Of a stretch of 64,000 nucleotides of DNA, positions 27,185 through 32,469 are shown piece after piece. Each line of letters opens with the position of its first letter. Positions within the stretch are counted from its first letter, which is position 1. The notes beneath the pieces are model-generated. The model did not search any database. It was not told the origin of the DNA and saw only the letters and a program-made list of their open reading frames with translations. Source of the stretch: a virus; UHGV virus genome UHGV-0148165, one strand, 5' to 3'. The position numbers were made by a program, and so were the translations under genes.

Positions 27185-27841
27185 TTATTTAGCCCTTCCT
27201 AATATTCTGGCCGCCTGAGCACATATTGATTCAAGGCGGTCATTACTTATATGATCATTTCTATACCAGTACATGGTTATCGTTCCAGCATAGATATTAT
27301 CCAAATTAAAATATGGACAACTGTACATGTAGTTTATTTCGGGAGTAGGCTTTTTAGTTGGTAAAAAAGCAAATTTTGAGTCGGAATAATAATGACGTCC
27401 ATTTAAATGAACTGTATATTCATCCATAGTTTTATCAACAGGATATCCTCCAAGTGATTTTTCACTTATTGTTGAAGGTAATTTTCCTTCATATGCTATA
27501 ATATCAACAAAATAGTTTAAGTTTTTAGGGCGGAAAGAATACACCGCACTAAAGTCTGCCTCAGATGATATGTGAACTATCTGGAGTTGTTCCAGGGCGA
27601 CAGATTCAAAGCGTGCATTTCTTTCCTTTTCAATAATTTCACTGTATGTTTCATACTTTGATTGCTTATAGTACTCAAAGAAACTATCTCCCCTATACCA
27701 AACAATCGCCATCATAAACAAAAGAATTACGACAGCTACCCGGGAAGCAAGAACTTTCCCGGTAGCGTTATCTTTGAACAAGCGATCTAGAACACCAAAT
27801 AGAATATCAGAGGGCGAAAATGATATTCTAGGTGCTGCCAT
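27185..27841 (-). CDS. t: holin T, 218 aa
   Basis: length identical to T4 holin; N-terminal TM segment VAVVILLFMMAIVWY; convergent with asiA. Confidence 0.85.
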   Translation of the reverse strand: MAAPRISFSPSDILFGVLDRLFKDNATGKVLASRVAVVILLFMMAIVWYRGDSFFEYYKQSKYETYSEIIEKERNARFESVALEQLQIVHISSEADFSAVYSFRPKNLNYFVDIIAYEGKLPSTISEKSLGGYPVDKTMDEYTVHLNGRHYYSDSKFAFLPTKKPTPEINYMYSCPYFNLDNIYAGTITMYWYRNDHISNDRLESICAQAARILGRAK

Positions 27842-27872: not shown

Positions 27873-28670
27873 TTATACTCTTGGACCATATATTACTCCA
27901 ACATTTTGCCAAGTTGGAGCAGATCCTATGACAGCATAACCTGCTGCTCCTCCTGCACCAACCTTTAGAACTTTACCACCATCAGACCAGGCATTTTGTC
28001 CATTTCCTCCGGCATCGCCGCCCTGGCCAGAGTGAGCATTTCCGTATTGGTAACCACCTCCTGGGGCGACGTATGAAGCTGCGCCACCTGAGTAACCACC
28101 GCCACCACCTGGGCCAAATGGTCTTCCGCCACCACCACCAATATCTTGCCAGCGTGCCCCTGAGTGAACACGGTAAGCAATGCCGCCACCACCGCCTCCG
28201 CCACCACAGATTACTCCACCATTGTTAATTCTTAATCGTCCACCAATGTCGTTTTGAATACAATGCCCGCCTTGTTGTCCATTACCATCTCCACCGAAAT
28301 GAGTCCATCCACCTTGTCCACCTCTACCCCACATATGAGCGCCAATAATATTTAACTGAACATATTCATTTGGTGTATCTCCGTACATGAAGAATAAAGG
28401 AACATCTTTAGAATATGATACTAAATCACCTGTAATATTAAACACTATAGGTGCATTACCTGCCTCAAAACATCTATCTCGGAACCATTGACCATTGAAG
28501 TTATGGTCTGCTCCAAGCGTGTGAATAATTTCTCGTGAGCGACCTGCAAATTGACTCATCCAGCAAGGAACACCCAATCTTAATTGACCAGCCGCTTGAC
28601 TCATCCATCGTTGTCCTGTTTCATTTACGGATGAACTACCAATCCAGCCAGGAACTCCAACTACTGCCAT
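27873..28670 (-). CDS. 38: long tail fibre tip adhesin gp38, T2-type, with glycine-rich motifs, 265 aa
   Basis: poly-Gly tracts (GGGGGGGG, GGGGG) between variable segments; N-terminus [13 protein letters not shown]...; downstream of gene 37. Confidence 0.8.
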
Positions 28671-28704
28671 AATTTATCTCCAAAGGGGGCGTTGCCCCTT
28701 GTTG

Positions 28705-31700
28705 TTAGAATTTAAAATATTTACTAATTTTGCGAGCAATTTTAGTGAAGAAAGGCGTTTTTAATTCTTTAATTTCTTCACTCATTTCCTGAATGGCCTT
28801 AATTAAAAGAGCATTCACAGCGGAGTTAGAAATTGTCAGAACTTCGTCTGGTTTATCAAGATTGCCAATTTTCGAAATATTAATCGCTTCTGGTAATATT
28901 TCTTGTAAATCCTGTGCGATAATGCCGATCTCATGACCGATAATTTCACGGTCCTTAAGAGATTTAACTTTATCGTAAGTTTTCACTTTCAGTTTACCAA
29001 TCAAACTTAACGCATTTCCGGTATAATCTTCTATATTGTCTTTAAGGCGACGGTCTGATCGAATATAAACATCGTTAAAGTTTCCGTTGCCACTGGCATC
29101 AAAGCTCCCATTTGCATGGAATTGATAATCAGCAGCCTGAACATGAAGAATCGCTGTCGCAGTATTATTACTATCACCGGGACAATGAACGTCCAGAGCA
29201 GCGATGAAGTTACGCCCCCAATCAACCGCTTTCCAAATAGCATGAGCACTATTAACGCTTTGTTGACAGTCAAGCAACAAACCAGCAGGGCGATCTCTCC
29301 AATTCACATAAGCACCACCAGAAACTTCACCGCGAATAAGCCCTTGATCTCCGGCATAAGGAACACGCTCTCCCACTTTAATCATTGCACCCTGGAAGTG
29401 ATGACTAAATGAACCCCCATGATTATTTCGTATATGTAAAATACTATCATCGGTCGCCCAAATAACAGCCTTTTCTGTATCGCTGCTATCTCTAAACCAG
29501 ATATGGCGAGCACCAGTAGAGGTTTTGATAGTAATCCCGGAAGGTCCATGCGCAGTAAAATCGCCAGCAACATCAAACATCAAACTGTTATCTGTCCTGC
29601 GTTCCGTATAGAAGTGATAACCTTTGGAATCACCGACTTCCATCACTGCCGGGCGACCAACTTCTGAATTTCCCCAATTATTAATAGAGAATCGTTCAGA
29701 GCTATTATTCATCTGATTTAGGTATAATGTACCATCAGTGAATGTTTCGCCAAAGAAACGAGTTTTAATTGCACCTGTCGCTAAAGTACGTTCAGTGGAA
29801 AAATGGGCGCCTTGACTATCTTCTAACTGGATGATGTTATCACGAGCGTTATTGCTATCACCCCAATGGTTAAATTTAAAATAATCTCGTGATCCTAAAC
29901 GTCCGGCGTCAAAAGTCATCGTGCCTTTCATGTTAATATCACCACCAAAAAATGCGGTGAGAGAATCACGTTTTAATTTTAAAACGTTAGCACCACTAGC
30001 ACCACCTAAAGTAACATCACCAGTTCTTAATTCATAACGGAAAGGTCTATTTGTATTAAAGTTTCCATCTTGATCATCTTCGTCGGTGGAAAGAATATAA
30101 AGACTCTCTCCATCATTACGTAAAAATGTACCAAATTTTCCGCCATACATACGGAATGCATTCAACGAGCGGAATTTAACTTCTGTTTTAAATGTGGTAG
30201 TGTTATTAACTTTAACAGTAGAGTTAAAGTTAACTGCGCCATTAAAATCTTGTTTAGCAGTCCAAGTATGTGATCCGTCTTCAAGAACAACGCGTCGAAC
30301 TGTACATGTTCTACTCCCTGGATTACCGAATACACGAACGACAAAATAACGATAGTTTGTCTGGGATACAGTTCCACGCCAAACCTGAACAGTACGTCCT
30401 GTGCTGGTGTGCTCGCTAGGACCAACAGAAAACATAATTAAGTTTCCGTCAATCGTACCCCAATCCATATTAGCTGGCATGTTCTTTATTTTGTTCAAAG
30501 GAACGCTAAACATACTACCAGGAACAAAATCAAATGCTTGCCAGTCTAACTCTGCTAAGTTAGATTTAATACCACCCATACCCAAAGTAATTGGAAGAGA
30601 GTAAGATGTATATACTTCGTTCCATGTACCCCAAACACCGCCGGTGTATGCGCGCTCAAAAATACGATCGCGGGTAGTTGCACCTGTTCCGGCAGTAGTA
30701 AATTTTTGGAAAATAGCACCACCAGAAGCACGCTGTTTAACTTCCAGCAAACCAACAATAACGGCTGGTAAACCTTCGCCTGTAGGACAATTAATAACGG
30801 CATCAGTGCCTAAAATATTATATAACCCAGGAGTTTTAAAATCATTCAGATCTCCGTCATAGAAAGTCGCTGGTGTGACATTACCGACTTGTTGCCACGG
30901 TCCCCATTTAGGCGCAGAAGCATCCCACGCAGCAGTAAGACAGCGAGTATAAACAACACCAAATCTGGTCGTATATCTCTGTGTGCGAGAATAGTTTCCA
31001 CCTTCAAATATTTCTAAAAATCCTTGTGCGGCTGATCCTTTTTCTGGATAATGGCGATCAAATGATGCGATTGCGCTTGAACTGTTTCGCCATAAGCCAC
31101 AATGTTCTAATTCTCCCAAGCTATCAAGGTCAATCGTTTGTGAAAGTGGACGAGTTGACGCTTGAACATTACGCCACACACCCCATGGACCATCGACGCC
31201 ATTCCATTTAGCAGATAAGGAACGAATATAGACGTTACCAGATCTTACAGTATAACGCTGAGTGCCAGCAAATTGGCCGGCCACAAACACTTCTAGTACA
31301 CCTACGGCATTTTCTTCTGGGAATTTATTTGCTGGTTGCGCATTTGTTGAAGTAGATTTCGACCAAACACCAAGATATTCTTCAACAGGCCCATACGTAT
31401 CTAAATTAGCATCAGTAGGTAATTCGCCATTATTTTTTATAAATGTTGTGCTATTGACATTTATGTCAGATGGAGTTAGCGTGATATCTTTTGACCCATC
31501 AAAAGATATACCATTAATTTTCCTAGGTGTTTGCAATTTAGTAGCTGTGCTAGAATTTCCAATTAAAGTTCCAGTTATATTTTCTGTAACCTCTAAAGAC
31601 CCATTTATAGTTCCTCCATATTTTAAACCTAATTCTATAACACTACCTGAGTCATCTTTTGTGAAAATTGTTTTATCTTTTAAGTTTATAGCCAATTCAC

Positions 31701-31779
31701 CTTCGGCTAATACTGAAGCAGCAGGACGTTGACCTGCAGTTTTGCTTCTTTTAAATTGTATTTGTTTTAAAGTAGCCAT
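28705..31779 (-). CDS. 37: long tail fibre distal subunit gp37, 1024 aa
   Basis: size and position in the 34-35-36-37-38 block; C-terminal region with His-containing repeats. Confidence 0.9.
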
Positions 31780-32461: not shown

Positions 32462-32469
32462 TATTTATA
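32462..32469 (-). promoter_or_regulatory. late promoter TATAAATA for gene 36 (minus strand)
   Basis: plus-strand TATTTATA 24 nt upstream of gene 36 ATG. Confidence 0.5.

What the first reader, a model, noticed from the sequence alone, without database searches (positions are those of the whole stretch)
27873..28670. gp38 is the adhesin type with glycine-rich motifs, the likely host-range determinant
The 265-aa product downstream of gene 37 has poly-Gly runs (GGGGGGGG, GGGGG, GGGG) separating short variable segments. That is the architecture of the T2-type receptor-binding adhesin, not the 183-aa T4-type assembly chaperone. At DNA level the GGT/GGC repeats (about 28020-28230 on the plus strand) are recombination-prone.
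Basis: partly seen in the sequence, partly recalled or inferred. Interest (0 to 1): 0.5.

Follow-up and report, generated by a model that had tools for sequence, protein, structure and literature searches.

The report
T2-type gp38 tail-fibre adhesin, OmpA-binding variant

Summary
It lies between gene 37 and holin gene t.

It matches Pfam GP38 and Gp38_N over its full length, and it matches the two solved gp38 structures, PP01 9V85 and S16 6F45. A confident AlphaFold model hits only those two folds. It shows no similarity to the 183-aa T4 gp38 chaperone (best E 0.78). Its partner gp37 carries the C-terminal S74 self-chaperone domain typical of T2-type fibres.

The specificity domain (aa 110-265) differs by two residues from that of phage AV119, an experimentally OmpA-dependent "type 1" adhesin. 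It is about 95% identical to RB32 (OmpA plus LPS) and 81% to Ox2 (OmpA). The predicted receptor is OmpA.

The gene is a mosaic: a T6/Ox2-type N-terminal attachment domain joined near codon 47 to an AV119-type remainder. The junctions seen here flank the HVS cassette rather than lying inside the glycine repeats. Indels and one frameshift in relatives do sit at glycine motifs.

Two substitutions, S125F and N173R, are private to this sequence. Codon 173 is a hotspot.

Verdict: already known; low interest.

The parts
27873..28670 (-). Gene 38, encoding the 265-aa T2-type receptor-recognising adhesin (coordinates include the stop codon)
   Evidence: ORF listing. Pfam GP38 and Gp38_N. PDB 9V85 and 6F45 sequence matches. 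AF2 model with fold search.
28530..28670 (-). N-terminal attachment domain, aa 1-47, T6/Ox2/RB32 subtype. It carries the three conserved tryptophans W9, W22 and W37, which dock onto the gp37 trimer.
   Evidence: Pfam Gp38_N covers aa 1-42. W9, W22 and W37 are invariant or nearly invariant. DNA is 97-100% identical to Ox2 and only 50-68% to AV119. The role of the tryptophans is described for S16 in PMC6851490.
28344..28529 (-). Central conserved beta-helix segment, aa 48-109
   Evidence: Strands are predicted with pLDDT 90-95. DNA is 100% identical to AV119 and 93-100% to FL15 and Ox2.
27954..28343 (-). Specificity cassette, aa 110-239. It alternates glycine-rich motifs GRM1-4 with hypervariable segments HVS1 (122-133), HVS2 (164-177), HVS3 (193-216) and HVS4 (225-239). 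It is the predicted polyglycine-II sandwich with the receptor-binding loops.
   Evidence: Entropy profile over 68 homologues: GRM segments 0.6-0.95 bits, HVS segments 1.8-2.65 bits. AA 110-265 are 98.7% identical to OmpA-dependent AV119. DSSP assigns little helix or strand here despite pLDDT of about 90 or more.
27873..27953 (-). GRM5 plus the conserved C-terminal tail, aa 240-265, and the stop codon. It returns to the beta-helix.
   Evidence: Conserved PTWQNVGxIYGPRV tail. It assorts independently of HVS4 across homologues.
28182..28205 (-). G8 run, aa 156-163. It is the equivalent of the S16 helix-3 run '151-GGGGGGGG-158'.
   Evidence: G157-G161 are invariant in 68 homologues. S16 description in PMC6851490.
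28095..28139 (-). GRM3: [15 protein letters not shown], aa 178-192, containing two G5 runs
   Evidence: It overlaps the 15-nt direct-repeat family D1.
28140..28181 (-). HVS2 loop [14 protein letters not shown], aa 164-177. It contains the RVHSGA motif, which corresponds to the predicted OmpA-contact residues R165-A170 of AV119 and FL08.
   Evidence: Alignment offset of 2 residues to AV119. Contact residues from PMC12032242. Highest entropy of all segments, 2.65 bits.
28152..28154 (-). Codon 173 (CGC, Arg). This is a hotspot, and the Arg is private to this sequence.
   Evidence: Among 59 type-1-like sequences the residue is N in 47, K in 7, H in 2, D in 2 and R in 1. Genes otherwise identical carry CGC, CAC, AAC or GAC here.
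28296..28298 (-). Codon 125 (TTC, Phe) in HVS1, a private substitution. The other 58 relatives have Ser (TCC).
28678..28681 (-). GGAG ribosome-binding site, 7 nt upstream of the gene 38 ATG
   Evidence: Read directly from the sequence.
28705..31779 (-). Gene 37, the distal long tail fibre subunit (1024 aa) that carries gp38 at its tip
   Evidence: PHROG 1699 at 5e-232. Pfam Gp34_trimer and Peptidase_S74.
28885..29058 (-). Peptidase_S74 intramolecular chaperone domain of gp37, aa 908-965. It is preceded by the conserved DVYIRSD motif. It is present in T2-type gp37 and absent from T4 gp37.
27185..27841 (-). Holin gene t, the downstream neighbour (synteny marker)
   Evidence: Pfam Phage_holin_T at 2e-117.

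Best explanation
What it is. Gene 38 of a Tequatrovirus encodes the T2/T6/Ox2-type receptor-recognising adhesin.

How it works. One gp38 monomer caps the trimeric tip of gp37. That cap is made after gp37's C-terminal S74 intramolecular chaperone has folded the fibre and been cleaved off. The helical N-terminal domain of gp38 (aa 1-47) inserts three conserved tryptophans, W9, W22 and W37, into pockets on gp37. A short beta-helix follows. From it two long excursions rich in glycine pack as polyglycine-II helices into a rigid 'sandwich'. The glycine runs are the scaffold. The short hypervariable loops between them (HVS1-4) form the distal surface that binds an outer-membrane protein.

Receptor. 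The HVS set here is the 'type 1' OmpA-binding set of phages AV119 and FL08, and is close to RB32 and Ox2. The primary receptor is therefore most likely OmpA, possibly with some dependence on LPS.

Evolution. The gene is modular. The attachment domain, central segment, HVS cassette and C-tail assort independently among phages, by recombination in the conserved flanks and glycine motifs. Point substitutions accumulate in the loops.

What is shown and what is inferred. Shown here: family membership, predicted fold, synteny, near-identity to experimentally typed adhesins, and the mosaic structure. Inferred from published work on homologues: the 1:3 attachment to gp37, cleavage of gp37, and OmpA binding.

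Sub-confidences: adhesin rather than chaperone, about 0.98; OmpA as primary receptor, about 0.85.
For: Family and fold.
- Full-length Pfam GP38 (1.1e-66) and Gp38_N (3.2e-19).
- PHROG 2056 at 1e-110.
- PDB 9V85, the PP01 gp38 receptor-binding domain, at 1.2e-72, and 6F45_D, S16 gp38, at 3.3e-52.
- AF2 model with pLDDT 86 and pTM 0.78. Its only significant PDB fold matches are 9V85 (TM 0.87) and 6F45_D (TM 0.81).
- W9, W22 and W37 are conserved. GRM/HVS alternation is quantified.

Context.
- Gene order is 37-38-t, as in T2, T6, RB32, AV119 and Ox2.
- gp37 has the S74 domain, like T2 and AV119 gp37 and unlike T4 gp37.

Receptor.
- AA 110-265 are 98.7% identical to AV119. The only differences are S125F and N173R.
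- AV119 and FL08 fail to plaque on an ompA deletion mutant (PMC12032242).
- The paper's predicted contact residues are all present at a +2 offset: R165-A170, D217, R181 and R262.
- RB32 gp38, 95% identical overall, confers OmpA/LPS specificity when crossed into RB5 (PMC3157838).
- Ox2, an OmpA phage, is 88% identical overall.
- Swapping gp38 switches a T6-like phage from Tsx to OmpA (preprint 10.64898/2026.04.02.716166).

Mosaic.
Against: - There is no experiment on this phage. Receptor assignment rests on homology.
- The two private substitutions, S125F in HVS1 and N173R in HVS2, lie in predicted contact loops. Residue 173 is adjacent to the RVHSGA motif. A single HVS3 substitution (Q206L) is reported to switch another gp38 from OmpF to OmpW, so near-identity does not guarantee the same receptor or the same OmpA-variant range.
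- The contact residues in PMC12032242 come from AlphaFold-multimer and molecular-dynamics models, not from a solved complex.
- AA 1-18 of my model have low confidence (pLDDT below 50). That is expected without gp37, but it means attachment was not modelled here.
Confidence: 0.85

Rival explanations
1. It is a T4-type gp38, that is, a non-structural chaperone that helps gp37 fold and is absent from the virion. Receptor specificity would then reside in the gp37 tip.
For: Only the gene name and the position downstream of gene 37.
Against: BLASTP against T4 gp38 finds nothing (best E 0.78). T4 gp38 belongs to phrog_105 'tail fiber assembly', which the window protein does not hit. The length is 265 aa against 183 aa. 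The window gp37 lacks the Collar and Phage_fiber domains of T4 gp37 and has an S74 self-chaperone instead.
Confidence: 0.01
2. It is a gp38 adhesin, but the private loop substitutions S125F and N173R have shifted its specificity. The shift could be to another porin, to a particular OmpA loop variant, or to OmpA of another genus, so 'OmpA type 1, broad' would not describe it correctly.
For: F125 and R173 each occur in 1 of 59 type-1-like sequences. Both lie in HVS loops, and 173 abuts the RVHSGA contact motif. Codon 173 takes four states (R, H, N, D) in genes otherwise identical across 645 nt, and most differences among these genes are non-synonymous. Single-residue receptor switches are documented for gp38. 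Near-identical adhesins occur in phages isolated on Yersinia, Shigella and Salmonella.
Against: All other predicted contact residues are intact. Relatives with N, K, H or D at position 173 include AV119, RB32 and Ox2, all of which use OmpA, so this position tolerates change without loss of OmpA use. Type 1 adhesins accept all eight OmpA variants tested (PMC12032242).
Confidence: 0.1
3. gp38 fixes only the primary receptor. The phage's practical host range is limited mainly by other things: the gp12 short fibres and LPS core, O-antigen or capsule shielding, and intracellular defence. In that case gp38 is not 'the' host-range determinant. This rival addresses only the host-range clause and is compatible with the best explanation.
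For: Type 1 phages infect MG1655 expressing every OmpA variant tested, but only 14-16 of 72 ECOR strains (PMC12032242, and section 9). Straboviridae need a secondary LPS-core receptor set by gp12 (Kdo or HepI), and swapping gp12 changes that phenotype independently of gp38. RB32 is also sensitive to LPS composition.
Against: Exchanging gp38 alone is sufficient to change the porin used and to allow growth on resistant hosts. Type 1 and type 2 gp38 correlate with broader and narrower ECOR host range.
Confidence: 0.5

Closest known systems
gp38 of Escherichia phages AV119 and FL08 ('type 1' OmpA-binding adhesins, Lutz et al. 2025, PMC12032242)
   Same: AA 51-265 are identical to AV119 except S125F and N173R, and DNA over those codons is about 99.5% identical. 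The [18 protein letters not shown] and GGDAGGNG variants are the same. It has the same family, the same gene position, and a gp37 with an S74 domain.
   Different: The N-terminal attachment domain (aa 1-47) is a different subtype: 51% protein identity and 50-68% DNA identity. This matches a different gp37 tip. AV119 gp37 is 1104 aa and has a 50-90 aa insertion before the DVYIRSD motif, which the window gp37 lacks.
gp38 of phages RB32/RB33 and Ox2 (classical OmpA-specific T-even adhesins; Trojet et al. 2011, PMC3157838; record X05675)
   Same: The attachment-domain subtype is the same (97-100% DNA identity to Ox2 over codons 1-100). The HVS family is the same. Overall identity is 95% to RB32 and 88% to Ox2. 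Length is 265 aa against 266 aa.
   Different: RB32 and Ox2 carry the RPHSGAK variant of HVS2 and D/E-G at residues 201-202. Ox2 DNA is only 62-79% identical across the specificity cassette. The gp37 segment aa 781-905 is 62% identical to RB32 and about 33-35% to Ox2 and T6.
Solved gp38 structures: S16 gp37-gp38 tip complex (PDB 6F45) and PP01 gp38 receptor-binding domain (PDB 9V85)
   Same: The three-domain architecture is the same. The G8 run is at the equivalent place. The predicted model superposes with TM 0.81-0.87, and sequence E-values are 3e-52 and 1e-72.
   Different: The HVS loops differ, and the receptors differ: PP01 binds OmpC (PMC12892980), and the S16 receptor site was described as not yet known in PMC6851490. 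Identity is 46% to S16 and 61-63% to PP01.
T2 and T6 gp38 (FadL/OmpF and Tsx adhesins)
   Same: Family, synteny and GRM framework are the same. The T6 attachment domain is identical in type.
   Different: HVS1, 2 and 4 share 25% identity or less with the window (T6 is P0048). T2 is 49% identical overall and has a different attachment subtype.
T4 gp38 (tail-fibre assembly chaperone, phrog_105)
   Same: Only the gene name and the map position.
   Different: The sequence is unrelated, the family is different, the protein is 183 aa, and it is not part of the virion (PMC6851490).

Membership tests
T2-type gp38 adhesin (Pfam PF05268 GP38 + PF21721 Gp38_N) | Full-length sequence match to both family models above their gathering scores | tested here: met
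   GP38 scores 225 bits against a cutoff of 25, covering aa 47-265 and profile positions 1-218 of 218. Gp38_N scores 69 bits against a cutoff of 25, covering aa 1-42.
T2-type gp38 adhesin (Pfam PF05268 GP38 + PF21721 Gp38_N) | Encoded immediately downstream of gene 37 and upstream of holin t in Tequatrovirus | tested here: met
   The order is the same in T2, T6, RB32, AV119 and Ox2.
T2-type gp38 adhesin (Pfam PF05268 GP38 + PF21721 Gp38_N) | Three conserved tryptophans in the N-terminal helical attachment domain (S16 structure, PMC6851490) | tested here: met
   W9, W22 and W37 are invariant in 8 reference adhesins and at least 90% conserved in 68 homologues.
T2-type gp38 adhesin (Pfam PF05268 GP38 + PF21721 Gp38_N) | C-terminal domain with conserved glycine-rich motifs alternating with four hypervariable segments | tested here: met
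   Mean column entropy is 0.6-0.95 bits for GRM segments and 1.8-2.65 bits for HVS segments. The glycine fraction in GRMs is 0.47-0.73.
T2-type gp38 adhesin (Pfam PF05268 GP38 + PF21721 Gp38_N) | Beta-helix plus polyglycine-II sandwich fold | tested here: met
   This rests on a predicted model only: pLDDT 86. Foldseek hits are restricted to 9V85 and 6F45_D, with probability 1.00 and TM 0.74-0.87.
T2-type gp38 adhesin (Pfam PF05268 GP38 + PF21721 Gp38_N) | Partner gp37 ends in a cleavable intramolecular chaperone instead of the T4 receptor-binding needle | tested here: met
   Peptidase_S74 covers gp37 aa 908-965. T2 and AV119 gp37 have it and T4 gp37 does not. Cleavage itself was not tested.
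T2-type gp38 adhesin (Pfam PF05268 GP38 + PF21721 Gp38_N) | Present in the virion at the fibre tip and required for adsorption | not testable with these tools
   This needs virion proteomics or electron microscopy, plus gene 38 mutants.
'Type 1' OmpA-specific gp38 (AV119/FL08 group, PMC12032242) | Specificity-domain sequence clusters with AV119 and FL08 | tested here: met
   98.7% identity over aa 110-265. FL08 (P0003) shows 86-100% identity in every HVS and GRM segment.
'Type 1' OmpA-specific gp38 (AV119/FL08 group, PMC12032242) | Type-1 contact residues R165-A170, D217, R181 and R262 (AV119 numbering) | tested here: met
   The window has R167-V-H-S-G-A172, D219, R183 and R264, an offset of +2.
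'Type 1' OmpA-specific gp38 (AV119/FL08 group, PMC12032242) | Loss of plating on an ompA deletion mutant, and infection of all OmpA loop variants | not testable with these tools
   This is an experimental phenotype, and the private S125F and N173R substitutions could modify it.
T4-type gp38 assembly chaperone (phrog_105) | Sequence similarity to T4 gp38 | tested here: not met
   Best BLASTP E-value is 0.78 over 20 residues. phrog_105 is absent from the window protein's hits and is the top hit for T4 gp38.
T4-type gp38 assembly chaperone (phrog_105) | About 183 aa and paired with a gp37 that carries its own receptor-binding needle domain | tested here: not met
   The protein is 265 aa. The window gp37 lacks the Collar and Phage_fiber domains seen in T4 gp37.

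The most novel reading that the evidence does not exclude
The two private loop substitutions, S125F in HVS1 and N173R in HVS2, could be a recent host-range adaptation. Residue 173 is a recurrently hit codon next to the predicted OmpA-contact motif. The substitutions might retune which OmpA loop variants, or which enterobacterial genus, this otherwise standard type 1 adhesin can bind. Codon 173 would then be a natural single-residue 'tuning knob' of OmpA-specific gp38.
Probability: 0.2. Interest if true: 0.3.

Novelty: already known. Interest (0 to 1): 0.12.

Why it matters
The practical value is modest. The sequence allows a confident prediction of the phage's primary receptor (OmpA, type 1 variant). 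That is useful when composing phage cocktails or anticipating resistance through ompA mutations.

The locus is also a tidy natural illustration of modular adhesin evolution. The attachment domain, HVS cassette and C-tail have different nearest relatives.

Nothing here changes what is understood about gp38. The family, its fold, its role and even this allele group are already published, and the exact protein already exists in public assemblies.

Tried and rejected
- T4-type chaperone: tested and rejected.
- Type 2 or M1-like OmpA adhesin: rejected. M1 (P0044) shares only 0-19% identity in the HVS segments, and FL18 has T6-like loops.
- EPIMAM01 as an intragenic chimera, because tblastn matched only the first 67 residues of the specificity domain: rejected. 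Its deposited gene is frameshifted in the glycine-rich region. Other truncated tblastn matches are artefacts of the low-complexity filter; for example MX01 (P0032) is 79-87% identical in HVS3 and HVS4.
- HVS reassortment relative to the window's HVS set: none seen among 67 homologues. All four HVSs are either window-like (58% or more) or unlike (25% or less in HVS1, 2 and 4). The only alternating pattern is P0062, which has a T2 framework with OmpA-type loops.
- A dedicated promoter or terminator for gene 38: none convincing. Sigma-70-like and terminator-like hits are at or below shuffle expectation. There is no TATAAATA between genes 37 and 38. The small GGGGC/GCCCC hairpin in the 37-38 spacer folds no better than shuffles (z = -0.32).
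It was redone with an alignment of database homologues.
- The classical Ox2 host-range-mutant positions (Drexler et al. 1989) could not be retrieved from the held library, so I could not map them onto codons 125 and 173.
Full report
**1. The observation**

The ORF is real. Window 27873-28670 on the minus strand encodes 265 aa from an ATG, with a GGAG ribosome-binding site 7 nt upstream. It lies 34 nt downstream of a 1024-aa ORF (28705-31779, minus strand) and 31 nt upstream of a 218-aa ORF (27185-27841, minus strand).

The protein has 69 glycines (26%), and 55 of them are in aa 116-265. The runs are:
- G8 at aa 156-163 (window 28182-28205)
- G5 at aa 178-182 (28125-28139)
- G5 at aa 188-192 (28095-28109)
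- G3 at aa 204-206
- eleven GG pairs

Everything else in the description is accurate. A run of 8 or more glycines appeared in 65 of 20,000 shuffles of the protein's own composition, and the run is conserved in 68 homologues. Region 28020-28230 is 58% GC in a window that is 35% GC overall. It contains four copies of a 15-nt Gly-codon repeat.

**2. What it is**

Family searches agree:
- Pfam gives full-length matches to GP38 (PF05268, 1.1e-66) and Gp38_N (PF21721, 3.2e-19).
- PHROGs gives phrog_2056 "tail fiber protein; host specificity" at 1e-110.
- The neighbours are gp37 (phrog_1699, 5e-232) and holin T (Pfam, 2e-117).
- Two solved structures match by sequence. One is 9V85, at 1.2e-72. This is the receptor-binding domain of phage PP01 gp38, which binds OmpC (PMC12892980). 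The other is 6F45 chain D, at 3.3e-52. This is S16 gp38 in complex with the gp37 tip.

I predicted the structure with AlphaFold2, using an alignment of 68 homologues. The model has mean pLDDT 86.1 and pTM 0.78. Only the first 18 residues fall below pLDDT 50. In a Foldseek search of the PDB, the only significant matches were 9V85 (TM 0.87 on the target) and 6F45_D (TM 0.81). The next hit had E = 2.4.

The features that the authors of the S16 structure describe are all present (PMC6851490):
- three conserved tryptophans in the attachment domain: W9, W22 and W37
- a central beta-helix
- a G8 run at the position of S16 "151-GGGGGGGG-158"

**3.

T4 gp38 is 183 aa (locus L007). It shows no similarity to the window protein: the best BLASTP E-value is 0.78 over 20 residues. 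T4 gp38 belongs to phrog_105 "tail fiber assembly", and the window protein does not hit that family.

The partner gp37 points the same way. The window gp37 carries a Peptidase_S74 intramolecular chaperone domain at aa 908-965, as do T2 and AV119 gp37. T4 gp37 instead has Collar and Phage_fiber domains and no S74 domain. The chaperone reading is refuted.

**4. Which receptor**

I searched the phage collection with the specificity domain alone (aa 110-265). The top hit was Escherichia phage AV119, at 98.7% identity. In explicit alignment, the window and AV119 differ over aa 51-265 only by S125F and N173R.

Published receptor data for the relatives are as follows.
- AV119 and FL08 are experimentally OmpA-dependent "type 1" adhesins. 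They lose plating on an ompA deletion mutant of MG1655, and they infect strains expressing all eight OmpA variants tested (PMC12032242).
- That paper's predicted contact residues are R165-V-H-S-G-A170, D217, R181 and R262. They correspond, with a +2 offset, to window R167-A172, D219, R183 and R264, and all are present.
- RB32 gp38 is 95% identical. It confers OmpA/LPS specificity when its HVS region is crossed into the Tsx phage RB5 (PMC3157838).
- Ox2, the classical OmpA phage, is 88% identical. T6 (Tsx) is 75% identical and T2 is 49% identical.
- T6-like, M1-like and FL18-like adhesins share 25% identity or less with the window in HVS1, HVS2 and HVS4.

I therefore predict OmpA as the primary receptor, with about 85% confidence. 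The remaining doubt has two sources. Both private substitutions lie in loops. And a single HVS3 change (Q206L) is reported to switch another gp38 from OmpF to OmpW (preprint 10.64898/2026.04.02.716166).

**5. Mosaic structure and the "recombination-prone" claim**

Codon-aligned DNA identity to the window gene behaves as follows:

| Compared with | 5' part | 3' part |
|---|---|---|
| AV119 | 50-68% over codons 1-45 | about 100% from codon 51 to the stop |
| Ox2 | 97-100% up to about codon 100 | 62-79% afterwards |
| FL15 (Krischvirus, Tsx) | 90-100% up to codon 100 | 30-50% until the last ~15 codons |

I then scored each segment separately across 68 homologues. The N-domain subtype, the central segment, the four-HVS cassette and the C-tail assort independently. 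The four HVSs travel together.

Published work says each gp38 N-terminal subtype goes with one gp37 C-terminus, a lock-and-key pairing (PMC3157838). That is consistent here at the level of architecture. Window, T6, Ox2 and RB32 gp37 share an identical last ~45 aa. They also lack the 50-90 aa insertion that AV119 and T2 gp37 have before the DVYIRSD motif.

So the clear junctions in this locus flank the cassette, at about codons 47, 100-115 and 240. They do not lie inside 28020-28230. This agrees with Trojet et al., who recovered no exchange between GRM1 and GRM5 among 14 selected recombinants.

- Close relatives have small indels at or next to glycine motifs. PYps55T has a GGQ tandem duplication in GRGGQGG and an extra Ser after the G8 run. 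PYps35T has lost QYGN.
- The deposited EPIMAM01 gene is frameshifted inside the glycine-rich region.
- A metagenomic relative (P0062, locus L013) alternates a T2-like framework with OmpA-type HVS loops, and does so at DNA level too. Its framework is 76-87% identical to T2. Its HVS segments are 67-84% identical to the RB32/window type and only 23-47% to T2.

In addition, the 2026 preprint reports an engineered cross whose crossover fell "from HVS2 onwards". The claim is therefore partly supported.

**6. Micro-variation**

The genes of BCPEco_001, AV119, AV120, PYps55T and PYps35T are essentially identical to the window over codons 51-265. Each differs from it by 2-4 non-synonymous and 0-2 synonymous codons.

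Codon 173 takes four states in these genes: CGC (R), CAC (H), AAC (N) and GAC (D). By my own rough estimate, three of about nine substitution events falling in one of 215 codons has a probability of about 0.002.

Among 59 unique type-1-like proteins, R173 and F125 each occur only in the window sequence. This suggests diversifying pressure next to the RVHSGA motif. The numbers are small, and I did not run a formal selection test.

**7. Context and novelty**

The window comes from a Tequatrovirus. It is about 97.8% identical over 24 kb to Escherichia phage vB_Eco_BCPEco_001, and similar to SHFML-11 and others. Megablast finds 393 phage records with this gene, 124 of them covering most of its length. 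The protein search finds 154 clusters with E-values up to 1e-5. The exact 265-aa protein is already present in public assemblies: Logan/ENA, 3 contigs, in a 132-member cluster at 90% identity.

The family, its fold, its mechanism and this allele group have all been published.

**8. On "host-range determinant"**

gp38 sets the primary porin receptor, and published swaps prove this is sufficient to change the porin used. Strain-level host range also depends on other things: the gp12-LPS core secondary receptor, surface shielding and intracellular defences. Type 1 phages accept every OmpA variant tested yet infect only 14-16 of 72 ECOR strains. The label is right for receptor choice and overstated for natural host range.

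Noticed in passing
window 29065-29439 (gp37 aa 781-905, minus strand): The gp37 segment just upstream of the S74 chaperone domain is itself mosaic. It is 100% identical to BCPEco_001, but only 62% identical to RB32 and about 33-35% to T6 and Ox2. The flanking N-terminal parts, the last ~45 aa of gp37 and the gp38 attachment domain are all conserved among these phages. It is unclear whether this variable pre-tip region affects adsorption.
   Followed up: partly
window 28152-28154 and 28296-28298 (gene 38 codons 173 and 125): Codon 173 takes the states R, H, N and D in genes that are otherwise identical over about 645 nt. R173 and F125 are each unique to this sequence among 59 type-1-like adhesins. 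This is a possible site of diversifying selection next to the predicted OmpA-contact motif.
   Followed up: partly
window 27965-28207 (minus strand) and 28073-28228 (plus strand): Two ORFs of 80 aa and 51 aa overlap gene 38 in other frames. One is Val/Ala-rich and the other is His/Arg-rich. They are by-products of the Gly-codon repeats read out of frame and are not genes.
   Followed up: yes
L012 568-1320 (Escherichia phage EPIMAM01, PQ493298.1): The deposited gene 38 is frameshifted after ...YSGGAAS within the glycine-rich region, giving a 250-aa product with an Arg/Trp-rich tail. This is either a sequencing or assembly error at the repeats or a genuine inactivating slip.
   Followed up: partly
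L013 53-853 (Logan SRR31021174 contig, protein P0062): This is a gp38 with a T2-type attachment domain, beta-helix, GRM2 block and C-tail, but with OmpA-type (RB32/window-like) HVS1-4. The pattern alternates at DNA level as well. It is a natural example of loop grafting bounded by glycine-rich motifs.
   Followed up: partly
window 28671-28704 and 32462-32469: No late-promoter consensus (TATAAATA) lies between genes 37 and 38. The nearest one on the minus strand is at 32462-32469, upstream of gene 37, so gene 38 is probably co-transcribed with the upstream fibre genes. The 37-38 spacer holds a small GGGGC/GCCCC hairpin (about 28686-28698) that folds no better than shuffled controls.
   Followed up: partly
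L009 301-1110 and L010 301-1086 (Yersinia phages PYps55T and PYps35T): Phages isolated on Yersinia pseudotuberculosis carry this same adhesin allele with small in-frame indels: +GGQ, +S and -QYGN. The type 1 OmpA adhesin is therefore found in phages isolated on Escherichia, Shigella, Salmonella and Yersinia.
   Followed up: no
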